Shown here piece after piece: positions 10,246 through 40,310 of a DNA stretch of 64,000 nt. The first letter of the stretch is position 1; each line of letters opens with the position of its first letter. The notes under the pieces were generated by a model. That model was not told where the DNA came from, made no database searches, and worked only from the letters and a program-made list of their open reading frames with translations. The stretch covers positions 189,539-253,538 of the forward strand of contig JBNKUM010000094.1 of assembly GCA_050298595.1 (NCBI GenBank), in the 5' to 3' direction. Source of the stretch: Gammaproteobacteria bacterium (GTDB lineage: Bacteria; Pseudomonadota; Gammaproteobacteria; GCA-001735895). A program made the position numbers and the translations under genes.

Positions 10246-10872
10246 TTAACAGGTGTAATTTTTTTGATATACAACATCCCCCATGCATTTAATATGGTGG
10301 CCAATCATTTTATTAAATATTTCTAACAGGGGCTGATATTTATCAGGACCTTCCTCCAGACAGGAAAGCAAACCTACAATTGATTCCAGAGTTGAAACCA
10401 GTCCTGGTCCTGGTTGTTTTCTGATTTTATAATTTGATTGTTTCAGTTTATCTAGCTCAATAGCTGTCAACTGGTGCAAATTAGTTGATAAGTGCCATAT
10501 CTTTTTAGCTTTACGCCAACTCGCATCAATAAATACAAAGGTATACTGACTAAGAGCATTTTCTTCAACAGCATGCTTTTGCTTAAATAAACTTAGTGAC
10601 AATGCATTAGCAGTAGGAAATACAAGAAATACTTTATTAAGATTCTCATGAAGTATTTGATTTAGTTCCTGGTTGGAAGAAAAATCCTCACCAACATATC
10701 GAATGCATCGTTGCAAATATAAATCGGCAATAATCGCACTCCCTTTAGGATGACGAACTTCATCCTTATGCTGCAATATAATAATGCCTGGTTTGTTATG
10801 AACTCGCTTTATCTTGCCACATAAACAGGCCGTTTTTGGGCGATAACACTGATAACAATATGCTCGACTCAT
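10246..10872 (-). CDS. DTW-domain tRNA-uridine aminocarboxypropyltransferase (TapT-like)
   Basis: CxxC...CxC, LQHxxE, DASW and STLE motifs. Confidence 0.85.
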   Translation of the reverse strand: MSRAYCYQCYRPKTACLCGKIKRVHNKPGIIILQHKDEVRHPKGSAIIADLYLQRCIRYVGEDFSSNQELNQILHENLNKVFLVFPTANALSLSLFKQKHAVEENALSQYTFVFIDASWRKAKKIWHLSTNLHQLTAIELDKLKQSNYKIRKQPGPGLVSTLESIVGLLSCLEEGPDKYQPLLEIFNKMIGHHIKCMGDVVYQKNYTC

Positions 10873-20925: not shown

Positions 20926-21915
20926 ATGAAAACAAGAATATTGGGTAAGTCTGGTTATGTGGTATCTGAAATAGGCTTGGGTTGCTGGCAGCTCGGTAAT
21001 GACTTTGGCCCCGTGGAAGAGCAACAGGCTGCCGCAATACTGGACACGGCTGAGGACCAGCAGATTTGCTTCTGGGATACTGCCGATGTTTATGGTGCAG
21101 GTTTGAGTGAACGCCGTATTGGTCAATGGCTGGCCAGCTTGGGACCGAATGATAAGCGGCCACTGGTGGCTACCAAAGTCGGGCGGGATGCCGCTCTTTA
21201 TCCCGATGGATACACTAAAGCCAGGGTACGGACTAATTTACTTGGCTCGATTGATCGTTTGGGTGTGGAAGCGTTAGATCTGGTTCAGCTACATTGTGTA
21301 CCTACCGAGATATTGATGGCAGGCGATATGCTGGACTGGATGGAAGACTTTCAACAGGAAGGGTTGATCAAGGCTTTTGGAGCCAGTGTAGAGAAAATAG
21401 ATGAGGCTTTGTTCTGTGTTGAGCACCCTAAGCTGACCAGTTTGCAGATTCTATTTAATCTCTTTAGACAGGATGCTACCGAAGTTCTGTTGCCCAAAGC
21501 AGCAGAAAAAGAGGTAGGTGTTATTGTACGTTTGCCATTAGCCAGTGGCTTACTCAGTGGCAAGATGACCAAAGATCAGCAATTTGCAGCGGGAGATCAT
21601 CGCAACTATAACCGTGATGGTGCCGCTTTCCATGTGGGAGAGACCTTTAATGGTATTCCCTTTGAAAAGGGCGTGGAGTTGGTGCAAGAACTGAATAGCT
21701 TTGTTCCTCAGGACATGACGTTATTGCAAATGGCCTTGCGCTGGATATTGGATCAACCGCAGGTGAGCACGGTTATTGCCGGTGCTAGTAAAGCTTATCA
21801 GGTGGAAAGCAACGCCGCTGCTTCAGCACTTCCACCTTTATCTGACGTTCTGCATCAACAATTGCGGGCATTCTATTACGACAAAGTAAGAGACCAGATT
21901 CGGGGAGGGCTCTAA
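20926..21915 (+). CDS. aldo/keto reductase (copy 1)
   Basis: GLGCW, DTADVYG and ATK motifs; paralog at 36449. Confidence 0.93.
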   Translation: MKTRILGKSGYVVSEIGLGCWQLGNDFGPVEEQQAAAILDTAEDQQICFWDTADVYGAGLSERRIGQWLASLGPNDKRPLVATKVGRDAALYPDGYTKARVRTNLLGSIDRLGVEALDLVQLHCVPTEILMAGDMLDWMEDFQQEGLIKAFGASVEKIDEALFCVEHPKLTSLQILFNLFRQDATEVLLPKAAEKEVGVIVRLPLASGLLSGKMTKDQQFAAGDHRNYNRDGAAFHVGETFNGIPFEKGVELVQELNSFVPQDMTLLQMALRWILDQPQVSTVIAGASKAYQVESNAAASALPPLSDVLHQQLRAFYYDKVRDQIRGGL

Positions 21916-29901: not shown

Positions 29902-30029
29902 GGGTTTACTAAACCGGGTCGAGAATAATGTAGGTCAGATACAAATATATAAATATTGCGTGTACAAGACTCCAGTTATGTAGGTGAAAAATGCATGTTG
30001 ATGAGGGGCACCCATTAAGGGGCAGGGGG

Positions 30030-30635
30030 TCAGGTTGAACCAGCGGCTATGACCCTGGATATCTGCATCATTTTATCCTTTTCTTTTTGATCCAGATTTG
30101 AGTAGATCATCAAAATCTCCTGAAGATCATCTGGAAAGTAGGCGCATAGGCCATCTAGCTCCACATGCTGTTCATCCATCCAGTTGCGGGATTTTTTTAG
30201 CTGCTTTTCGATTTTACGACATAATTTATCCTGAAGTTTCAGGAAGGGATTATCCAGGTGTTGCTTGAATTCTGAAGGTTTCAGCCCGGTAGTTTTTCTA
30301 AGTGCCGTGACTTCTGTTTTATTTAAAGATTTTACCAGTTGGCTCAGGTTCTGATGACGAATAGCCTGAAGATCGCGCTCACCAGACCCTATGCTACCTA
30401 AACCAAACTGAATCCAGCAGGGATTAATTTTAGTGACTTCGGCTATCTTCAATATGTCCTGAGAGGCGGGCATAGAGATGCCCTGCTCATAGTTACCCAA
30501 TCGGCTGACACTCCATTCAGGAGTCGCCTGTATAAATGCTGCGCGCGTCTTAAACCCCGCCATTTGCCGGGCCTGTTTAATTCGTGCACCGACCTGTTTT
30601 CTAAAATCATCAGTAGTAGTATTTTTTTTGGTCAT
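30030..30635 (-). CDS. XRE-family repressor with two HTH-like domains and no peptidase domain
   Basis: GARIKQAR...RLGNYEQG...WIQFG; second phage-repressor-like unit IRHQNL...RKIEKQL..NWMD. Confidence 0.8.
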   Translation of the reverse strand: MTKKNTTTDDFRKQVGARIKQARQMAGFKTRAAFIQATPEWSVSRLGNYEQGISMPASQDILKIAEVTKINPCWIQFGLGSIGSGERDLQAIRHQNLSQLVKSLNKTEVTALRKTTGLKPSEFKQHLDNPFLKLQDKLCRKIEKQLKKSRNWMDEQHVELDGLCAYFPDDLQEILMIYSNLDQKEKDKMMQISRVIAAGST

Positions 30636-30643
30636 AATAAATA

Positions 30644-30693
30644 ACAAGAATCTTGTAATTAGTGGTTGACAGCTTGTAATGCTTCATTATACT
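30644..30693 (+). promoter_or_regulatory. sigma70 promoter with adjacent and overlapping operator-like sites
   Basis: TTGACA(30666)-16 nt-TATACT(30688); palindrome ACAAG-AAT-CTTGT at 30644-30656; CTTGTAAT at 30652 and 30673. Confidence 0.7.
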
Positions 30694-31297: not shown

Positions 31298-31468
31298 ATG
31301 TTATCGATAAATAGAGCTGTCTGGCCGGTGATTTATGTATCGCCAACAGCCCAGTTGCGCCCTGAGTTTATGGGCAAGCAGCTCTGTATATCCGCTCTGT
31401 ATATAAGCAATGCGCCCAGGAACCTGGAACAGAATCATTTTGATTCAAAGGGTATTGGTAAAACGTAA
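31298..31468 (+). CDS. putative leader peptide 2 (56 aa, MLSINRAVWP...KGIGKT)
   Basis: AGGAG at 31276, in-frame GTG at 31292 and ATG at 31298; ends 17 nt before attenuator 2. Confidence 0.5.
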   Translation: MLSINRAVWPVIYVSPTAQLRPEFMGKQLCISALYISNAPRNLEQNHFDSKGIGKT

Positions 31469-31485
31469 TTCTCCATGAAAGTCCT

Positions 31486-31567
31486 TCGGAGGGTTGCAGT
31501 AATAACAAGCACCTCCGAGAGTTTAAAAAACCCCGGTTGTGCTTGAGAAGGCACCCGGGGTTTTTTT
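31486..31567 (+). terminator. attenuator 2 (same architecture as attenuator 1)
   Basis: TCGGAGG/CCTCCGA hairpin; CCCCGG...CCGGGG-T7; AAGCACCTCCG can pair with CGGTTGTGCTT. Confidence 0.78.
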
Positions 31568-31575
31568 ATGCCCCC

Positions 31576-31610
31576 ACACCGGCGTTCCCGGTGTTAATGA
31601 TCTTTGACAA
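31576..31610 (+). promoter_or_regulatory. rrn-type boxB-boxA antitermination signal
   Basis: Hairpin ACACCGG-CGTTC-CCGGTGT, then TGATCTTTGACAA (E. coli boxA is TGCTCTTTAACAA). Confidence 0.7.
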
Positions 31611-31731
31611 TTTGGAATCACGCAATGCCACCGGGAAACCGGTGGCCGGGCGAAACACTGAAGTAATCAGTCAGTTGTTTTGTCGCGGACATTTGTCTGC
31701 GATATGTCGAACCCATCGACCGCCCACAACT

Positions 31732-31806
31732 GCAGATATAGCTCAATGGGTAGAGCGACGGCTTTCCTGGCCGAGGACCCCAGTTCGATTCCGGGTATCT
31801 GCTCCA
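31732..31806 (+). tRNA. tRNA-Gly(TCC), atypical (U37, stem mismatches)
   Basis: Cloverleaf GCAGATA/TATCTGC, TTCGATT loop, U73, CCA. Confidence 0.8.
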
Positions 31807-32742
31807 GATTCGCCTGCTTGCAGGCAAATGCCTGGCATTCTTGTCCCGAGATGCCGGTGCAGCGACACATCGGGTTCCCATGATGGATAAGCCGGACATC
31901 CAGTGTAGTCGGCAGTGTCATCAGACCGCGTGAGGTCTTTACGATAATTGATGGCGACATCGAAAAAGGGGGAATGCCTGCATACCCTCGCCGGGGCAAC
32001 TCGGTCGATTTACGCAAGCCCAGTCCTCTACGTCTTCGGGTCGCTCGGAGATACTGATAAAGGGATGCATGGTAATTAAGGATGCCGGGCGGCTAAAACC
32101 GTGGTATTCGAATGTTTTCGTGACTGTTAACGCCATGGGTCAACATCTCGTTTCAGGAGGGATGAAGGGTGCACTTTTAGTCCGAGCCGTCAGGTTAGGG
32201 CGTTAGTGAAGTTTGAAGGGTGAGGGCAGTGGCCCAGATCCTGAAAAACGGTCAAGTAGCGGGATACGTGAAAGACATGGGGTGTGTGGCATTTTTGTCC
32301 TCAAAAGGGACTGGAACCACCGGAGTACGCACATCCTGGCAGGTTGTTGAAATAGCTCAACTGGTAGAGCAATTACCTCTTAAGTAATGGGTTTCAGGTT
32401 CAATTCCTGATTTCAAGGCAAACAGAAAATGGAAAGACGTACTCCAGCGTTAAGTGAAAGTGACCTAAGTCTCGGCAGCTTGCTGAACCGAGAAGGGTTT
32501 GAGGCCCCAAGCCAATAACCCGGGTACCGAATCGCATCAATGGGCCGGACAGCTCAGAGAGTAGATGAAGTGCCGAGTAGCTTAGCGGTATGTAGGTATT
32601 GCCACCTACTCAAACAAGGCGGTTACGAAGGTTTACCATGATGCCAAGAAAGGGGGCATGGTGGATAAGCTGGGAAACAGCGGGTGGAACCGACTGATAA
32701 TCCAGTGAAAGGATCTTCATAGAGGCTGTAATCTCAGGCCTT
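31807..32742 (+). ncRNA. large structured RNA, GOLLD-like, with embedded tRNA; boundaries approximate
   Basis: ~930 nt without a credible ORF; dense helices and GNRA loops (GGGCAACTC, GCTGGGAAACAGC); 3' end GGCTGTAATCTCAGGCC; tRNA-array context. Confidence 0.7.
32346..32418 (+). tRNA. tRNA-Lys(CTT), embedded, G1:G72 mismatch, no CCA
   Basis: Full D, anticodon and T arms; loop CTCTTAA. Confidence 0.8.
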
Positions 32743-32747
32743 ATTCT

Positions 32748-32823
32748 TCCCTGATGGCGTAAATGGTGAACGTAGCTGACTGTTAATCAGAAGTTTCGGG
32801 TTCGAATCCTGATCGGGGAGCCA
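32748..32823 (+). tRNA. tRNA-Asn(GTT)
   Basis: Cloverleaf, G73, CCA. Confidence 0.88.
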
Positions 32824-32829
32824 GATATT

Positions 32830-32913
32830 GGTTGTACTGAGCATTGGTGGGCTCACCTGGCTGTAACCCAGACTCCTCTGGACGTGATGGTTCGACTCCA
32901 TCTGCAACCACCA
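32830..32913 (+). tRNA. tRNA-Tyr(GTA)
   Basis: Cloverleaf with long variable region, C8, CCA. Confidence 0.85.
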
Positions 32914-33027
32914 GACAAAAAAATCATGAGAGCAAACTGCAGACACTCTCGATATCGATTGATAAAAGCGGCGTTGGCCGTGAATTATCCCCTGGCTAAT
33001 TCCTGAAACGGCGAGGGTTAGATTTAT

Positions 33028-33104
33028 GCGTCCGTAGTATAACTGGATATTACACCGGACTTTTAATCCGGCTAATGCGAGTTCAACTCTTGCCGGACGT
33101 ACCA
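33028..33104 (+). tRNA. tRNA-Lys(TTT)
   Basis: Cloverleaf, CCA. Confidence 0.88.
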
Positions 33105-33110
33105 TTTTAT

Positions 33111-33185
33111 TGCTCTGTAGCTCAATGGTAGAGCCCCCGGCTGATAACCGGAAGGTAGTGGGGTCAGTACCCACCAGAGCAACCA
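33111..33185 (+). tRNA. tRNA-Ile(GAT), non-canonical T-loop GTCAGTA
   Basis: Cloverleaf, CCA. Confidence 0.82.
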
Positions 33186-33260
33186 GTTTGTTATGTTCCC
33201 AGGCTCTGGACAAACGATATTCCTGCGAGCCAGGCTGCCCGACAATCGGGCTCAAATTAC

Positions 33261-33335
33261 ACTCCCGTGGATTAATGGTGAGATCGACAGACTTTCAATC
33301 TGTAGGTGAGGGTTCAATTCCCTTCGGGAGTACCA
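33261..33335 (+). tRNA. tRNA-Glu(TTC)
   Basis: Cloverleaf, CCA. Confidence 0.88.
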
Positions 33336-33340
33336 GATAT

Positions 33341-33414
33341 GGGGTCATAGTTAAGTTTGGGCGAGTGCCTGTTTTACAAGTTGATTATTGCCAGTTCGAT
33401 TCTGGCTGGCTCTA
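33341..33414 (+). pseudogene. degenerate tRNA, Ala-like acceptor (G3:U70) with TAC in the loop
   Basis: T arm and acceptor intact; D and anticodon stems broken; no CCA. Confidence 0.65.
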
Positions 33415-33553
33415 CTGAATGTGCCTACCTTGTTAGCTACAGGAAGGTCATCACACCACAGTCAGCACAGAGGGGGGCTGAATAGCAGCGAGGCTGCAAA
33501 ACGGTGCGGTAAAAGTCCGAAGTTTCGTAACACAACAGTAACGGAGGTATCCA

Positions 33554-33724
33554 ATGAATCACTATCGTAAATTTGAACGTGCAGTTCAGGATATGAATAT
33601 CCCGAAAAACCGCAAGACTGCCAACCCAGCTAATGCGAGTTGGTTCTTAAGGTCAGGAGTAGCCTACAACCGTGATCACGACAAGATCATGACGGCGATA
33701 TTCCATGCGCGCAATATTTCTTAA
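33554..33724 (+). CDS. small basic protein (56 aa, MNHYRKFERAVQDMNIP...WFLRSG...HARNIS)
   Basis: GGAGG RBS at 33543; fills the gap between two tRNAs; absent from the ORF track (<60 aa). Confidence 0.65.
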   Translation: MNHYRKFERAVQDMNIPKNRKTANPANASWFLRSGVAYNRDHDKIMTAIFHARNIS

Positions 33725-33728
33725 CAAT

Positions 33729-33806
33729 GGTGGGTATAGCTCAGTGGGTAAGAGCGCCGGGTTGTGACCTCGGAGGTCATCGGTTCAAGTCCGATTATTC
33801 ACCCCA
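33729..33806 (+). tRNA. tRNA-His(GTG)
   Basis: Cloverleaf, G-1:C73, CCA. Confidence 0.92.
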
Positions 33807-33872
33807 AACAAGGACTGCTTTAACTTCCCCCAGGGATTGGTGGATACAGACCCGGAGTTAAAGCACCAATTT

Positions 33873-33949
33873 ATCCTGATGGCCAAATTGAATAAGGCAG
33901 CGGTTTATGAAACTGGAGAATGCAGGTTTGACTCCTGCTCGGGATACCA
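33873..33949 (+). pseudogene. degenerate tRNA with ATG anticodon, probably ex-Arg(ACG)
   Basis: Acceptor, T stem and CCA retained; TTTGACT T-loop; mismatched anticodon stem. Confidence 0.6.
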
Positions 33950-33958
33950 AATCATTCT

Positions 33959-34035
33959 GCCGGGGTGATGGAATTGGCATACATGCTTGTCTTAGAAACA
34001 AGATTTTGCGGGTTCAAATCCCGCCCCCGGTACCA
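33959..34035 (+). tRNA. tRNA-Leu(TAG), short variable loop
   Basis: Cloverleaf, Leu-type D arm, A73, CCA. Confidence 0.88.
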
Positions 34036-34041
34036 GTTCAA

Positions 34042-34118
34042 TAGCGATTAACTCAGCTGGTTAGAGTGCCAACCTTACCAGTTGGATGTCGTGTGTTCGA
34101 ATCACACATCGCTAACCA
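34042..34118 (+). tRNA. tRNA-Val(TAC), C37
   Basis: Cloverleaf, CCA. Confidence 0.88.
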
Positions 34119-34119
34119 C

Positions 34120-34196
34120 GGCAAAGTGGCTGAAATGAAAATGGCGCAAACCTCATAAGATTGAAAATGCCGATTTAATCCCGGCCTTTGCCTCCA
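34120..34196 (+). pseudogene. degenerate tRNA-Met-like (CAT)
   Basis: Perfect acceptor and CCA; D-loop GG and T-loop degraded. Confidence 0.6.
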
Positions 34197-34202
34197 ATAT
34201 TT

Positions 34203-34277
34203 AGCGAGATAGACCTAATGTTAGAGCACCGGGTTCATTTCCCCGAAGACCCGGTTTAGATTCAAAATTTCGCTCCC
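34203..34277 (+). pseudogene. degenerate initiator-like tRNA (CAT)
   Basis: AGCGAGA/TTTCGCT acceptor; GGG/CCC anticodon stem; T stem destroyed. Confidence 0.55.
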
Positions 34278-34283
34278 GATTAT

Positions 34284-34361
34284 CTGGGTGTAGCTCAGTC
34301 TGGTCAGAGTTCTTGCCTTGGAAGCAAGATGCCGTTGGTTCGAATCCAACCACCCAGACCA
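34284..34361 (+). tRNA. tRNA-Pro(TGG)
   Basis: Cloverleaf, C1:G72, CCA. Confidence 0.92.
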
Positions 34362-34366
34362 AATAT

Positions 34367-34441
34367 GCGGATGTAGCTCAACGGTAGAGCATTGCCCTGT
34401 CAAGGCAGAGGTCGTGGGGTCAGTACCCATCATTCGCGCCA
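34367..34441 (+). tRNA. tRNA-Asp(GTC), non-canonical T-loop GTCAGTA
   Basis: Cloverleaf, G73, CCA. Confidence 0.85.
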
Positions 34442-34464
34442 GATTCTACGAAAGGAAAAGTCCA

Positions 34465-34590
34465 GTGAAACAAAGAAACCCTGTGCCCGTTAACAGGCCC
34501 TGGAAGGAAAGTGTTTATGAAAATAGTAGCAAGGCCAAACGTCAACAATCAAAGATGGCGTTTCAAAAAAGATTATGTGGACGTGGCTGA
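34465..34590 (+). CDS. small Lys/Arg-rich ORF (41 aa, MKQRNPV...) whose stop lies inside tRNA-Cys
   Basis: AAAGGA RBS at 34451, GTG start. Confidence 0.4.
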   Translation: MKQRNPVPVNRPWKESVYENSSKAKRQQSKMAFQKRLCGRG

Positions 34591-34652
34591 ATGATTATAG
34601 CGCCTGGTTGCAACCCAGGATTTTGCAGGTTTGATTCCTGTCGTCCACTCCA
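34577..34652 (+). tRNA. tRNA-Cys(GCA)
   Basis: Cloverleaf, U73, CCA; T-loop TTTGATT. Confidence 0.82.
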
Positions 34653-34701
34653 AATGTTAGGGCCTGCTAAGTCGTACAACCTTTTACGTTAATTTTTAAA
34701 T

Positions 34702-34775
34702 AGTCCTGTGGTGTAGCGGTAACACTCTTGTCTTTGACACAAGCATCGGTAGTTCGAATCTACCCGGGGCTGCCA
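34702..34775 (+). tRNA. tRNA-Gln(TTG)
   Basis: Cloverleaf, G73, CCA. Confidence 0.9.
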
Positions 34776-34797
34776 GATATTATCAGTTTGTCATACT

Positions 34798-34872
34798 GGG
34801 CCGTTAGCATATTGGTAGATGCAAACCCCTCATAAGGGTTTGAAGAAAGTTCGATTCTTTCACGGCCTACCA
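34798..34872 (+). tRNA. tRNA with CAT anticodon (Ile2-like or Met)
   Basis: Cloverleaf, GGGCC acceptor start, CCA. Confidence 0.85.
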
Positions 34873-34961
34873 CATAGCTTGTATCTCCCTGCGTATCAAT
34901 AGGGTCAGAGTGAATGAAGCTTACTTAAAACTTGATGCACTGTCATTGCATTTCAATTTCT

Positions 34962-35038
34962 ACCCCTGTAGCTTAATCGAATAGAGCACCTGGCTTCGAA
35001 CCAGGCGGTTGGGAGTTTGAGTCTCTCCAGGGGTGCCA
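34962..35038 (+). tRNA. tRNA-Arg(TCG)
   Basis: Cloverleaf, CCA; T-loop TTTGAGT. Confidence 0.82.
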
Positions 35039-35044
35039 ATAATT

Positions 35045-35120
35045 GTAGCGATAATTCAATTGGCAGAATGCCGGTCTCCAAAACCGGACGTTGGGGGTTC
35101 GAGGCCCTCTCGCTACGCCA
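35045..35120 (+). tRNA. tRNA-Trp(CCA)
   Basis: Cloverleaf, G73, CCA. Confidence 0.88.
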
Positions 35121-35179
35121 TGCATGTGATTCCAAATGGTCTTCTATTTTTTAACATGGACAAGATCTGGAGGTTAACT

Positions 35180-35752
35180 ATGGTCACATCCATTCTACAA
35201 CTGGATATTGCAGGAAACCCTGCAGGCTGGATCAATCATCGGCAAGCCATCTTGTTGGTGGCCTCAGATCGTGTGGTAGCCGGTCTGGGTGACCATGATT
35301 TTATATTTCAGGGTGGGGTAAACCGGGTTACCCGGTCACGATCATGCGTGATTGTCAGCTCCATTTTGCTGACTCGTGAGAGAGTAGTTGGGAATCGGTG
35401 GCAACATAACTTTGAAGCCCCGTTGACCAATAAAGGGCTGTTTGCTCGGGACCGGTATATGTGCCTGTACTGTGGACAAAGCCACGTTCCATCACAACTG
35501 ACAATGGATCATGTGATGCCGAAATCTCGAGGAGGTGCAGATACCTGGGTAAATGCAGCGACAGCCTGTCGCAAGTGTAATCATGCCAAAGGTAATCGAA
35601 CCCCGGAAGAATGGGGGCACCATCTGTTGGCGGTGCCATTTGCACCGAACTGGGCTGAATACCTGTACCTGAAAAACACGCGACGCATCATTGCGGATCA
35701 AATGGCTTTTTTAAAAAGTCGATTTCGTAAGGACAGTCCGCTGCTGGTCTGA
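35180..35752 (+). CDS. HNH endonuclease (McrA-like)
   Basis: RDRYMCLYCG...TMDHVMPKSRGG..W.N...C..CN..K; GGAGG RBS at 35169. Confidence 0.92.
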   Translation: MVTSILQLDIAGNPAGWINHRQAILLVASDRVVAGLGDHDFIFQGGVNRVTRSRSCVIVSSILLTRERVVGNRWQHNFEAPLTNKGLFARDRYMCLYCGQSHVPSQLTMDHVMPKSRGGADTWVNAATACRKCNHAKGNRTPEEWGHHLLAVPFAPNWAEYLYLKNTRRIIADQMAFLKSRFRKDSPLLV

Positions 35753-35904
35753 AGAGACAGGTCGGTAATTTTGGTAAAACCGACTCGGTCCAAAACCGGG
35801 TCGGGCGCAGGTAAGCATTTGATTTTATGGCTTTATTAGCTATTTAAATATACAAAGCTGACCTTAAAGGGGCAATTTAACGAACTTTGTAGGGCCAGCA
35901 GGTT

Positions 35905-36448: not shown

Positions 36449-37438
36449 ATGAAAACAAGAATATTAGGTAAGTCTGGTTATGTGGTATCTGAAATAGGTC
36501 TGGGTTGCTGGCAGCTCGGTAATGATTTTGGCCCAGTAGAAGAACAACAGGCTGTCGCAGTACTGGACACGGCTAAGACCCAGGAGATTAGTTTCTGGGA
36601 TACCGCCGATGTTTATGGTGCGGGTCTGAGCGAACGCCGTATTGGTCAATGGCTGGCCAGGTTAGGACCGAATGATAAACGCCCACTGGTGGCTACCAAA
36701 GTCGGGCGGGATGCCGCTCTTTATCCTGATGGATACACTAAAGACAAGGTGCGGACTAATTTGCTTGGCTCGATTGATCGTTTGGGTGTGGAAGCGTTAG
36801 ATCTGGTACAGCTACATTGTGTACCGACCGAGATATTGATGGCAGGCGATATGCTGGCCTGGATGGAGGACTTTCAACAGGAAGGGTTAATCAAGGCTTT
36901 TGGAGCCAGTGTGGAGAAAATAGAAGAGGCTTTGTTCTGTATTGAGCACCCTAAGATGACCAGCTTGCAGATTCTATTTAATCTCTTTAGGCAAGATGCT
37001 ACCGAAGTACTACTGCCCAAAGCAGCAGAAAAAGAGGTAGGTATTATTGTACGCTTGCCATTAGCCAGTGGCTTACTCAGTGGCAAGATGACCAAAGATC
37101 AGCAATTTGCGGAGGGAGATCACCGCAACTATAACCGTGATGGTGCCGCTTTCCATGTGGGTGAGACCTTCAATGGTATTCCCTTTGAAAAGGGCGTGGA
37201 GTTGGTGCAAGAACTGAATAGCTTTGTTCCTCAGGAAATGACGTTACTACAAATGGCCTTGCGCTGGATATTGGATCAACCGCAGGTGAGCACGATTATT
37301 GCTGGTTCTAGTAAAGCTCATCAGGTGGAAAGTAATGCCGCTGCTTCAGCGCTACCACCCTTACCTGACGCTCTGCATCAACAATTACGGGCCTTCTATT
37401 ACGACAAAGTAAGAGACCAGATTCGAGGAGGGATCTAA
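36449..37438 (+). CDS. aldo/keto reductase (copy 2)
   Basis: Near-identical 329-aa paralog of 20926-21915. Confidence 0.93.
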   Translation: MKTRILGKSGYVVSEIGLGCWQLGNDFGPVEEQQAVAVLDTAKTQEISFWDTADVYGAGLSERRIGQWLARLGPNDKRPLVATKVGRDAALYPDGYTKDKVRTNLLGSIDRLGVEALDLVQLHCVPTEILMAGDMLAWMEDFQQEGLIKAFGASVEKIEEALFCIEHPKMTSLQILFNLFRQDATEVLLPKAAEKEVGIIVRLPLASGLLSGKMTKDQQFAEGDHRNYNRDGAAFHVGETFNGIPFEKGVELVQELNSFVPQEMTLLQMALRWILDQPQVSTIIAGSSKAHQVESNAAASALPPLPDALHQQLRAFYYDKVRDQIRGGI

Positions 37439-39799: not shown

Positions 39800-39995
39800 T
39801 GGTCCTCATGTTCGGCTCTGGCATCCACGGCTCTGGCTTCCTGCTTCGCCCTACCTCCTCCCTCCCTGGAGTCGTACTTCGCTCTATCACCTAAATCCCT
39901 TTAGGTGTCCTGCATTGTTCTACCTTCGACCATCCATAGTCTCGTACCTTCACTCATCTCTGAGCTTGTGCCACCTACGTCCATGTAAGCGTCCA
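39800..39995 (-). other. cluster of GGA-loop hairpins (Csr/Rsm-sRNA-like or repeat element)
   Basis: About 11 TCC motifs on the + strand, several in hairpin loops (CACCTAAATCCCTTTAGGTG, GACCATCCATAGTC). Confidence 0.45.
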
Positions 39996-40310
39996 GAGTG
40001 TGAGCGATAGATGTAAATTGTAAGCACTGACCCTATCAGCCTATCCCTTTTTCAGATGAGTGTCGTACGCTAAATAGCTTATGTGGTTTTCTGATCTACG
40101 CTGTTTAGCTAATTGTAAGACGGCTATCTATCATCTAAATTATCTCTGTAGATATATTCTTCGTAGGATTTTTTTATTTAGAAAGCATCTTGCTGGAATA
40201 GTTATTTTTGATAAAAACGGGAATATTCGAGCTTAAATTTCACGTTTGGTTTTCAATAATATAAAAAAGTCTACGTTAAATCCATTACACACTTTCAGAA
40301 GGATTATATT

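What the first reader, a model, noticed from the sequence alone, without database searches (positions are those of the whole stretch)
31807..32742. GOLLD-like large RNA carrying a tRNA-Lys(CTT) clamped inside a helix
Seen: ~930 nt of dense helices and GNRA loops. tRNA-Lys (32346-32418) sits within a perfect 8-bp stem, GGAGTACG (32322-32329) / CGTACTCC (32438-32445). Unlike the other intact array tRNAs it lacks CCA and has a G1:G72 mismatch. Known: GOLLD RNAs are ~800 nt, sit near tRNAs, sometimes embed a tRNA, and form RNA-only cages. Inference: a proteobacterial GOLLD variant in which the tRNA is displayed cargo or a decoy (tRNA-Lys is a frequent anticodon-nuclease target) rather than a processed tRNA.
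Basis: partly seen in the sequence, partly recalled or inferred. Interest (0 to 1): 0.82.

Follow-up and report, generated by a model that had tools for sequence, protein, structure and literature searches.

The report
GOLLD RNA carrying a tRNA-like insert
This is a genuine member of the known GOLLD family of giant cage-forming bacterial RNAs, sitting at the head of an extra set of tRNA genes and carrying a tRNA-shaped insert in its variable loop, a layout already described for this family.

Summary
The Rfam GOLLD model (RF02032) matches window 32279-32740 over its whole length at 166.7 bits, above the cut-off of 150. The 358 nt upstream form a structured 5' domain: 92 pairs, 35 with compensatory changes. 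tRNA-Lys(CTT) at 32346-32418 lies in the model's unpaired linker. It has a G1:G72 mismatch and no CCA, whereas 17 of 17 other ARAGORN tRNAs of the array end in CCA.

The 8-bp "clamp" is real. It is not special to this locus: it is a covarying helix found across the family, and it forms a pseudoknot with the first 3'-domain hairpin.

The RNA heads an accessory tRNA array that ends in an HNH endonuclease gene. The same module occurs in two metagenome relatives and is published for mycobacteria.

GOLLD linkers that hold tRNAs, cages with the linker inside, and the tethered or stored tRNA idea are all already in print. The lysine-specific decoy argument is weak: homologous inserts carry other anticodons (CTC in the closest relative; at least 15 kinds overall).

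Contigs from four RNA libraries run through the insert.

Verdict: a new member of a known kind, of moderate to low interest.

The parts
30030..30647 (-). Helix-turn-helix regulator-like gene at the left edge of the segment shared with G010
   Evidence: PHROG transcriptional regulator families, best E 8.7e-08. The Pfam HTH hits fall below their cut-offs. 97.5% identical to its copy in G010. The shared segment starts at 30027.
31732..31806 (+). tRNA-Gly(TCC) directly upstream of the GOLLD RNA; first gene of the array
   Evidence: ARAGORN; Rfam tRNA 56.5 bits; ends in CCA. A tRNA ends just upstream of the GOLLD 5' domain in 15 of 51 viral-contig loci with 1100 nt or more of upstream sequence.
31807..32742 (+). 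Whole GOLLD RNA, about 910-936 nt. The 5' end is not mapped and lies between 31807 and about 31836.
   Evidence: Bounded by the tRNA-Gly end (31806) and the tRNA-Asn start (32748). Contigs from RNA libraries cover 31834-32715, 31836-32652, 31878-32913 and 32075-32825.
31863..31918 (+). Extra 5' hairpin, present in L206 and absent in L209
   Evidence: Alignment of close relatives. In L209 a tRNA-Gly(GCC) abuts the position equivalent to about 31920.
31921..32278 (+). Lineage-specific structured 5' domain
   Evidence: Homologous to L209 and L206 (nhmmer E 4.9e-28 and 1.5e-29). No nhmmer match in the 74 viral-contig segments. Alignment A1: 92 pairs, 35 with compensatory changes, 97.5% of cells paired; slid controls give 2-5; 0 of 500 shuffles reach the observed value.
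32279..32740 (+). Conserved GOLLD 3' domain (Rfam RF02032)
   Evidence: 166.7 bits against a gathering score of 150, E 5.3e-45, model positions 1-416 of 416.
32279..32337 (+). First hairpin of the 3' domain. Outer stem 32279-32285 with 32331-32337; A-rich loop TCAAAAG.
   Evidence: Rfam alignment. The variants G32280A and C32336T occur together in the contigs of 3 of 4 RNA libraries, which is a compensatory change. Helix 1 of A3: 5 of 7 pairs with compensatory change.
32322..32329 (+). 5' strand of the 'clamp' helix. It lies in the 3' bulge of the first hairpin, so the clamp is a pseudoknot.
   Evidence: Covariation.
32346..32419 (+). Embedded tRNA-like module, anticodon CTT (Lys); G1:G72 mismatch; no CCA
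   Evidence: ARAGORN; Rfam tRNA 61.8 bits. Lies in the unpaired linker of the GOLLD model. In 9 aligned GOLLDs the D, anticodon and T stems are 97-100% paired with compensatory changes, while the outer three acceptor pairs are 66.7% paired.
32438..32445 (+). 3' strand of the clamp helix, directly after the conserved AAAG-N motif
   Evidence: Helix 3 of A3: 8 pairs, 6 with compensatory change, 98.6% of cells paired. 16 distinct helix sequences are all 7 of 7 paired.
32748..35120 (+). Rest of the accessory tRNA array: 16 ARAGORN tRNAs plus 2 tRNA-like hits found only by Rfam
   Evidence: 54-75% identical to the genome's own tRNAs with the same anticodon. The order Asn-Tyr-Lys-Ile-Glu after the GOLLD is the same in L209 and L206.
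35033..35752 (+). HNH endonuclease ORF closing the array. The real start is probably after the tRNA-Trp end at 35120.
   Evidence: PF14279 E 3.9e-15 and PF01844 E 9e-14; PHROG HNH families. Homologues follow the last tRNA in L209 (61% identity) and L206 (55%), aligned from residue 49 or 54 onward.
35742..35767 (+). Terminator-like hairpin at the HNH stop codon
   Evidence: Consensus scan. The scan found no more such sites than in shuffles, so this is only a pointer.

Best explanation
Window 31807-32742 (+) encodes a bona fide GOLLD RNA. It has a lineage-specific but structured 5' domain (about 31921-32278, plus an extra 5' hairpin) and the canonical 3' domain (32279-32740).

It is the second gene of an accessory, foreign-looking tRNA operon. 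The order is tRNA-Gly, GOLLD, about 18 tRNAs, then an HNH endonuclease. The operon sits in the chromosome of a probable member of the Pseudomonadota.

Between the first 3'-domain hairpin and the rest of the 3' domain lies the family's variable linker. In this lineage the linker holds a tRNA-shaped module.

By analogy with the two solved GOLLD structures, the RNA should assemble into a homo-oligomeric cage with the linker, and hence the tRNA-shaped module, facing the interior. This step is inferred from published cryo-EM work and was not tested here.

The module is most likely kept as part of the large RNA, as a tethered tRNA mimic with an intact elbow, and does not serve as a decoding tRNA. 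Three observations point that way:
- Its arms are preserved by compensatory change, while the anticodon drifts between homologues.
- The acceptor end is loose.
- CCA is missing.

What the tethered tRNA shape does is not shown. It could bind or sequester a tRNA-recognising factor, or act as a stored tRNA. The link to tRNA supply or repair is contextual only.

Identity as a GOLLD RNA: about 0.97. The 'retained, non-decoding module' part: about 0.6.
For: Identity
- The Rfam GOLLD hit covers the full model above the curated cut-off.
- All 7 relatives tested also pass the cut-off.

5' domain
- 35 of 92 pairs carry compensatory changes, against 2-5 in slid controls.

Clamp
- The best helix fell in the same register (5' strand just before the C-N-C of the outer stem's 3' strand, 3' strand just after AAAG-N) in 23 of 27 unique GOLLD sequences.
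- 16 distinct helix sequences are all 7 of 7 paired; non-cognate pairings average 4.17 of 7.
- In the 9-sequence alignment A3, 6 of 8 pairs have compensatory changes and 98.6% of cells are paired.

Module and context
- The sequence GOLLD, then Asn-Tyr-Lys-Ile-Glu ... Trp, then HNH is shared with L209 and L206.
- The array tRNAs are only 54-75% identical to the genome's own tRNAs with the same anticodon.
- GOLLD was found in 2 of 61 relatives' genomes and 2 of 151 genomes of the class, both counts including this genome.

Insert kept as a shape and not as a decoder
- Homologous inserts read CTT (window, G010) and CTC (L209); L206 has a degenerate T arm. The anticodon and T stems change by compensation.
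- The outer three acceptor pairs are only 66.7% paired.
- There is no CCA here, while 17 of 17 neighbouring tRNAs have it.
- In 10 arrays whose other tRNAs almost all encode CCA and whose insert ARAGORN calls, 7 inserts lack it.

Expression
- Contigs in 4 RNA libraries from 4 studies, 95-99% or more alike, each bridge the insert with far more than 31 nt on both sides.

Literature (passages read)
- Linker inside the cage, and tRNAs sometimes present in the linker: PMC12286853.
- A pseudo-tRNA inside a mycobacterial GOLLD that was not detectably expressed on its own, and the cluster of GOLLD with an HNH gene: PMC6582537.
Against: - Contigs cannot show RNA ends, amounts or processing, and an RNA library can contain DNA. 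Efficient excision of the insert is therefore not excluded.
- The insert is a good tRNA by score: 61.8 bits, in the upper half of the array. One mismatch at 1:72 does not prevent function. Initiator tRNA has one (recalled, not checked).
- Lack of an encoded CCA is not decisive. Bacteria have a CCA-adding enzyme, and phage T4 tRNAs that lack CCA are matured in E. coli (recalled, not checked).
- Three of 10 inserts in arrays that encode CCA do carry a CCA-like end. One of them is the insert in G186, a genome of the same class, which scores 71.1 bits.
- Cage assembly was not tested for this sequence. Its 5' domain has no detectable sequence similarity to the GOLLDs on the viral contigs. Relative to the Rfam model it lacks one small hairpin (about model positions 247-265).
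- The covariation structure of the 5' domain was derived from the same 4-row alignment on which it was counted. Two of those rows are about 95% identical.
- No promoter could be assigned.
Confidence: 0.6

Rival explanations
1. The insert is an ordinary tRNA gene nested in the GOLLD linker. RNase P and 3' processing enzymes cut it out, CCA is added afterwards, and it decodes AAG. After cutting, the GOLLD halves either stay together through the clamp pseudoknot or are merely a precursor or spacer.
For: - Rfam tRNA score of 61.8 bits with all four arms intact.
- The insert in G186 (same class) has a CCA end and scores 71.1 bits.
- The clamp and the outer stem could hold a nicked RNA together (structure).
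- The genome's only other tRNA call with anticodon CTT is an odd 99-nt one, so a Lys(CUU) decoder could be useful.
Against: - The anticodon differs between homologous inserts (CTT, CTC, degenerate) while the stems are kept.
- G1:G72 mismatch and no CCA, against 17 of 17 neighbours with CCA.
- 7 of 10 inserts in arrays that encode CCA lack it.
- Contigs from 4 RNA libraries run through both junctions.
- In Mycobacterium aubagnense the pseudo-tRNA inside GOLLD gave no Northern signal of its own (PMC6582537, passage read).
Confidence: 0.25
2. The insert is specifically a tRNA-Lys decoy. It soaks up a lysine-tRNA anticodon nuclease, whether a host defence or a toxin, and so protects translation.
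For: - Two unrelated GOLLDs carry a CTT insert: the window with G010, and viral contig L069.
- The closest relative, L209, has an RtcB RNA ligase gene next to the HNH gene, hinting that the module meets cleaved tRNAs.
- Anticodon nucleases that cut tRNA-Lys are known (recalled, not checked).
Against: - Inserts carry at least 15 different anticodons: CTT, CTC, GCA, TCC, GCT, CTG, TAG, TTC, ATT, TCT, TGA, GAT, TTG, TAT and CTA.
- The homologous insert in L209 reads CTC.
- The best-known lysine anticodon nuclease targets the UUU isoacceptor with a modified wobble base, not CUU (recalled).
- The published structure places the linker inside a closed cage, which would hinder access (PMC12286853, passage read).
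- No nuclease or defence gene was identified beside this locus.
Confidence: 0.07
3. The locus is an inert remnant of a phage-derived tRNA island. Neither the large RNA nor the insert has a function in this host.
For: - GOLLD was found in only 2 of 14 genomes of the genus searched and 2 of 151 of the class.
- The array is reduced (18-20 tRNAs) compared with L209 (27) and L206 (29).
- Some array members look defective.
Against: - Compensatory changes maintain helices throughout both domains and the insert.
- The full-length Rfam match is above the cut-off.
- The same sequence turns up in contigs of RNA libraries from several habitats.
- The segment is kept at about 95% identity in G010, the same level as other shared genes at 91-96%.
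Confidence: 0.03

Closest known systems
GOLLD RNA family (Rfam RF02032). Structures solved for env-38 (14-mer) and Streptococcus agalactiae (12-mer), as listed in PMC12286853 and PMC12990946.
   Same: - Full-length match of the 3' domain above the curated cut-off.
- Total size of about 0.9 kb.
- Divergent 5' domain.
- Variable linker between the first 3'-domain hairpin and the rest of the domain.
- Lies among tRNA genes.
   Different: - The 5' domain has no detectable sequence similarity to the GOLLDs sampled from viral contigs.
- One small 3'-domain hairpin is missing and two hairpins are extended.
- The linker holds a 73-nt tRNA-like module, whereas env-38 has a 42-nt disordered linker.
- The setting is chromosomal with no phage genes in the 64-kb window.
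- Oligomeric state is unknown.
GOLLD inside mycobacterial tRNA arrays (Behra et al. 2019, PMC6582537, passages read; Morgado et al. 2020, not held and known only from citations)
   Same: - A horizontally acquired tRNA cluster contains the GOLLD RNA and an HNH endonuclease gene.
- There are tRNAs on both sides of the GOLLD RNA.
- A tRNA or pseudo-tRNA sits inside the GOLLD RNA.
- My own Mycobacterium locus L143 shows the same clamp register (GGGAAAG/CTTTCCC) and an insert with a shortened acceptor stem.
   Different: - Different phylum.
- Different anticodon in the insert: Phe or Gln-like there, CTT here.
- The array here is smaller (18-20 tRNAs against 32-37).
- Whether the HNH genes are homologous was not tested. 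tblastn found no hit in the 8-kb L143 locus, which may simply not reach the gene.
ROOL RNA
   Same: A large ornate RNA near tRNA islands that forms a cage with a disordered variable linker inside (PMC12286853; PMC5737381, passages read).
   Different: Unrelated sequence and fold. Rfam reported no ROOL match in the window.
tRNA-like modules built into larger RNAs, such as tmRNA and the tRNA-like 3' ends of plant viruses (recalled from general knowledge)
   Same: A tRNA-shaped part is kept as one domain of a bigger RNA and is used for recognition and not for decoding.
   Different: Those modules are terminal and are aminoacylated at a CCA end. This one is internal and has no CCA, so charging without prior cleavage is impossible.

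Membership tests
GOLLD RNA (Rfam RF02032) | Score at or above the curated gathering score of the covariance model, over the whole model | tested here: met
   166.7 bits against 150; model positions 1-416 of 416; E 5.3e-45.
GOLLD RNA (Rfam RF02032) | Conserved 3'-domain helices present | tested here: met
   The cmscan alignment shows all major helices. One small hairpin (about model positions 247-265) is deleted, and two hairpins carry insertions.
GOLLD RNA (Rfam RF02032) | Large, less conserved but structured 5' domain, giving a total length above about 800 nt | tested here: met
   358 nt with 19 helices, 35 of 92 pairs with compensatory change. Total length about 910-936 nt. Correspondence to the published stems P1-P13 could not be checked, because figures and supplements are not available.
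GOLLD RNA (Rfam RF02032) | Variable linker between the first 3'-domain hairpin and the rest, sometimes holding a tRNA | tested here: met
   The tRNA lies in the unpaired stretch of the model. The same site holds a tRNA in 5 of 63 other GOLLDs found with a general pattern and in 14 of 23 of the long-insert subgroup.
GOLLD RNA (Rfam RF02032) | Lies next to tRNA genes or inside tRNA arrays | tested here: met
   It is the second gene of an array of 18-20 tRNAs.
GOLLD RNA (Rfam RF02032) | Phage or prophage setting (frequent, not obligatory) | tested here: not met
   No phage structural, integrase or lysis genes among the ORFs scanned in the window. Only HNH and regulator hits were found. No blastn match in the phage collection. 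The literature notes GOLLDs outside prophages (PMC5737381).
GOLLD RNA (Rfam RF02032) | Self-assembly into a homo-oligomeric cage | not testable with these tools
   Needs cryo-EM or native gel analysis of the transcript.
Accessory tRNA array with GOLLD and HNH (as in mycobacteria) | Foreign tRNA set that duplicates the host's own isoacceptors, plus a GOLLD RNA, plus an HNH endonuclease | tested here: met
   Array tRNAs are 54-75% identical to the host tRNAs with the same anticodon. An HNH gene follows the last tRNA here and in L209 and L206.
Functional elongator tRNA-Lys | Seven paired acceptor positions, an encoded or added CCA end, and a stable anticodon among orthologues | tested here: not met
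   G1:G72 mismatch and no CCA. Homologous inserts read CTC or are degenerate. Addition of CCA after transcription cannot be excluded.

The most novel reading that the evidence does not exclude
The tRNA-shaped insert is a tethered substrate mimic held inside an RNA cage. Each cage would present 12-14 copies of a tRNA elbow and anticodon arm. These would capture, or sense, a tRNA-directed enzyme such as an anticodon nuclease, a modification enzyme or RNase P during conflicts over the tRNA pool. On this reading the variety of anticodons among GOLLD inserts (at least 15 kinds), including change between homologous inserts, reflects adaptation to different such enzymes and not decay. The accompanying tRNA array, with RtcB in one relative, would supply replacement or repair.
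Probability: 0.12. Interest if true: 0.75.

Novelty: new member of a known kind. Interest (0 to 1): 0.3.

Why it matters
GOLLD is one of the very few natural RNAs known to form RNA-only cages, and its function is still unknown. This locus adds no new principle. It does give a clean, chromosomal, probably proteobacterial example of the complete module: an upstream tRNA, a GOLLD RNA with an insert, a tRNA array and an HNH gene. Near-identical sequence is present in environmental RNA libraries.

The comparison made here bears on the published 'tethered or stored tRNA' idea in three ways:
- The inserts keep the tRNA shape through compensatory changes.
- They mostly lack CCA, even where all their neighbours encode it.
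- They change anticodon between close relatives.

That pattern makes a structural or recognition role somewhat more likely than storage of a decoding tRNA. It also points to constructs that a structural or biochemical laboratory could test directly.

Tried and rejected
- Phage collection: blastn (distant mode) with the 936-nt RNA and with neighbouring genes found no match.
- Single-sequence folding of the 5' domain gave a weak z-score of -1.38. I relied on covariation instead.
- The promoter and terminator scan found no more sites than in shuffles (9 against 8.9; 6 against 5.9). No promoter was assigned.
- The genome-contig scan with a 19-base pattern was a poor choice. The collection is so large that chance matches dominate. 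Only 7 of the 119 loci returned also had the GOLLD tail motif.
- nhmmer profiles for the first hairpin collapsed to 39 positions and did not align the bulge. I replaced that approach with a per-sequence helix search.
- MAFFT on 19 sequences (A2) put the clamp strands of 10 rows one column out of register. For the formal count I realigned only 9 rows (A3) and dropped L021, L008, L016, L143, L004, L025, L051, L077, L036 and L023. Their helices are covered.
- In one search, 4 of 27 unique sequences (L005, L038, L010, L076) gave a best helix out of register. The 'best helix anywhere' control separated cognate from non-cognate pairs only weakly (median 7.0 against 5.5; 19% of non-cognate pairs reached the cognate median). 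The comparison restricted to the shared register separates them better.
- Empty-site search in 13 congeners: the left flank is unique to this genome and the right flank is not syntenic. No insertion site could be defined.
- G010 shares other genes with this genome at 91-96% identity. The 95% identity of the module is therefore no sign of recent transfer between the two.
- Parts of 31400-33300 without contig cover in the RNA libraries (before about 31834 and after about 32913) are not evidence for transcript ends. Two contigs from two wetland studies of one year start at 31834 and 31836. No DNA run was laid for comparison, so this is not even a weak hint.
- Papers not held: Morgado 2020 and Weinberg 2009. 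Their content is cited only through other papers.
- Supplements are closed. Behra's Additional file 4 (Fig. S11), Kretsch's supplementary tables and the secondary-structure figures might show that the clamp is a named published helix (perhaps P15) and which tRNAs sit in linkers.
- My CCA test is lenient, allowing a shift of one base either way. In L069 and L207 the 'CCA' overlaps the conserved A-rich motif that follows the insert. The script ended with a KeyError after printing all rows.
Full report
**What is there**

ARAGORN finds 18 tRNA genes on the + strand between 31732 and 35120. Rfam adds two weaker tRNA-like hits. It also gives one match to the GOLLD model RF02032 at 32279-32740: 166.7 bits against a gathering score of 150, E 5.3e-45, covering model positions 1-416 of 416. 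This is the only GOLLD match in the genome, which is 5.49 Mb in 119 contigs and 98.6% complete.

This is a regular GOLLD RNA and not a new class. The Rfam model covers only the conserved 3' domain, so the stretch from the end of tRNA-Gly (31806) to 32278 had to be assessed separately.

**The 5' domain**

The stretch has no nhmmer match among 74 viral-contig segments that carry a GOLLD motif. Two metagenome contigs, L209 and L206, are homologous from about 31921 onward (E 4.9e-28 and 1.5e-29). Both pass the Rfam GOLLD cut-off.

I aligned four sequences: the window, its congener G010 and these two contigs.
- RNAalifold predicts 92 pairs in 19 helices, and 35 pairs show compensatory double changes.
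- 97.5% of cells are paired.
- Sliding the partners by 1-3 columns leaves 2-5 such pairs, and 0 of 500 shuffles reach the observed values.

There are caveats. The structure was derived from the same alignment on which it was counted. Two of the four rows are about 95% identical. The single-sequence folding z-score is only -1.38.

A further hairpin at 31863-31918 is shared with L206 but not with L209. In L209 a tRNA-Gly(GCC) abuts the domain directly.

There are 2 strict cases against 2.26 in shuffles.

**The insert and the clamp**

In the cmscan alignment the tRNA-Lys(CTT) at 32346-32418 lies in the model's long unpaired stretch, which is the family's variable linker.

Its acceptor stem has G1 opposite G72, and the discriminator is followed by CAAAC. 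All 17 other ARAGORN tRNAs of the array end in CCA.

By chance such a helix arises in 35 of 5000 shuffles. The 5' strand is the 3' bulge of the first Rfam hairpin, and the 3' strand follows a conserved AAAG-N motif. The helix therefore forms a pseudoknot with that hairpin's outer stem (32279-32285 with 32331-32337).

The helix is not peculiar to this locus.
- In 23 of 27 unique GOLLD sequences with both anchors, the best helix falls in exactly this register.
- 16 different helix sequences are all 7 of 7 paired, against 4.17 of 7 for non-cognate pairings.
- In a 9-sequence alignment, 6 of its 8 pairs show compensatory changes and 98.6% of cells are paired. Ten further rows were dropped from that alignment because MAFFT misplaced them by one column.
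- It also closes linkers that hold no tRNA: the loops between its strands range from 60 to 108 nt.

I suspect it is one of the published stems, perhaps P15, closing 'J13/15'. I could not see the figures to confirm this.

**How common tRNA inserts are, and what they look like**

- Among GOLLDs found with a general motif, ARAGORN finds a tRNA at this site in 7 of 65 eligible sequences. These are the window, G010, four viral contigs and one Mycobacterium.
- In the subgroup with a long terminal hairpin insertion, fetched from metagenomes, 14 of 23 eligible loci have one. These 14 comprise 10 unique sequences.
- A genome of another family in the same class (G186) has one too.

The anticodons are varied: CTT, CTC, GCA, TCC, GCT, CTG, TAG, TTC, ATT, TCT, TGA, GAT, TTG, TAT and CTA.

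The inserts of the window, L209 and L206 are homologous. The window reads CTT and L209 reads CTC. L206 has a decayed T arm but still scores 43 bits on Rfam's tRNA model.

Across 9 GOLLDs the stems of the insert behave differently:
- The D stem is 97.2% paired, the anticodon stem 100% and the T stem 97.8%, with many compensatory changes.
- The three outermost acceptor pairs are only 66.7% paired. This figure depends on the alignment.

I also compared CCA ends in arrays whose other tRNAs nearly all encode CCA (88-100%) and whose insert ARAGORN calls. There are 10 such arrays. In 7 the insert lacks CCA, and in 3 it has a CCA-like end. The insert of L206 was not called by ARAGORN; by eye it has no CCA.

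Taken together, the tRNA shape is under selection, while the anticodon identity and the chargeable end mostly are not. This weakens the lysine-specific decoy argument and favours a structural or recognition role. It does not exclude processing.

**Expression**

Near-identical sequence is held by 14 runs recorded as RNA. I laid four of them, from four studies. Each gave a contig that bridges the insert: 31836-32652, 31834-32715, 31878-32913 and 32075-32825, with 7-18 differences.

The differences G32280A and C32336T occur together in three of the four runs. They convert a G:C pair of the outer stem into A:U. The clamp strands are unchanged.

Contigs cannot show RNA ends or amounts, and DNA can be present in RNA libraries. 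This result is consistent with an intact transcript but is not proof of one.

**Context**

The array tRNAs are 54-75% identical to the genome's own tRNAs with the same anticodon. The genome has 39 further tRNA genes elsewhere.

After the last tRNA comes an HNH endonuclease gene. L209 and L206 have the same layout: GOLLD, then Asn-Tyr-Lys-Ile-Glu ... Trp, then a homologous HNH gene at 61% and 55% identity. In L209 an RtcB RNA ligase gene follows.

No phage genes were seen in the window.

GOLLD was found in 2 of 61 relatives' genomes and in 2 of 151 genomes sampled from the class, counting this genome both times. The segment 30027-37441 is shared with G010 at about 95% identity. That is the same level as other shared genes, at 91-96%. 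Common descent within this pair of species is therefore enough to explain it. Acquisition happened earlier, and no empty site could be found.

The host is probably a member of the Pseudomonadota (weak evidence).

**Comparison with what is known**

- Behra et al. 2019 (PMC6582537, passages read) describe a horizontally acquired mycobacterial tRNA cluster. It contains a GOLLD RNA, an HNH endonuclease and a pseudo-tRNA inside the GOLLD RNA. The pseudo-tRNA gave no Northern signal of its own.
- Kretsch et al. 2025 (PMC12286853 and its preprint; GOLLD section and Discussion read) show a 14-mer cage with the unresolved linker inside. They note that tRNAs are sometimes present in the linker and draw the cage 'exposing the covalently linked tRNAs'.
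- A 2026 review (PMC12990946, passages read) mentions a tRNA-Phe in J13/15 of a Mycolicibacterium GOLLD and proposes 'inhibited storage'.
- Weinberg et al. 2017 (PMC5737381, passages read) state that GOLLDs also occur outside prophages.

The kind of element, its context and the cargo idea are thus all in print. My literature searches found no paper that assigns a function.

**Verdict**

It is unproven, and not new, on mechanism, and its lysine-specific rationale is weakened. This is a new member of a known kind. Its residual value lies in the comparative pattern of the inserts and in providing a well-defined construct for experiments.

Noticed in passing
window 33873-33949 and 33959-34035: Two odd array tRNAs. 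One is called His but has anticodon ATG and no G-1. The other is a 77-nt class-I tRNA with anticodon TAG, whereas the genome's own Leu(TAG) is 85 nt with a long arm. The insert inside the GOLLD RNA of G186 is also a 77-nt tRNA(TAG).
   Followed up: partly
window 33341-33414 and 34120-34196: Two tRNA-like sequences found only by Rfam (33.3 and 40 bits). The first has a wobble-rich acceptor stem and no CCA. The second has a CAT anticodon and a CCA end, and ARAGORN calls it Met in G010.
   Followed up: partly
window 20926-21915 and 36449-37438: Two aldo/keto reductase paralogues of 329 aa, 93% identical. The second lies at the right edge of the segment shared with G010. Between the two lie cytochrome c, NapC/NirT, exosortase and VIT-VWA genes and the tRNA array.
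   Followed up: partly
L209:912-2039 (-): An RtcB RNA ligase gene (E 8.6e-89) directly follows the HNH gene that ends the tRNA array of the closest relative. The window has no such gene at the same place.
   Followed up: no
window about 39812-39950 and about 40056-40270: Short repeats with dozens of copies in this genome and in most congeners (70-98% identity). They look like small mobile or REP-type elements.
   Followed up: no
L063:5069-5412 and L204:2626-3024: Viral contigs that carry a GOLLD RNA also carry tmRNA genes within a few kb of it.
   Followed up: no
window 31521-31570: A strong GC-rich hairpin flanked by A and T runs. By eye it looks like a two-way terminator between the upstream unit and the tRNA array. 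The consensus scan did not list it.
   Followed up: no
window 10246-10872 (-): A DTW-domain protein (E 5e-49), a family of tRNA-modifying enzymes, lies 21 kb upstream. Probably unrelated to the array.
   Followed up: no
window 32458-32481: The loop region GCAGCTTGCTGAAC of a 3'-domain hairpin is identical in the window, L209 and L206, while the stem below it changes by compensation. It is a candidate tertiary or inter-chain contact.
   Followed up: no
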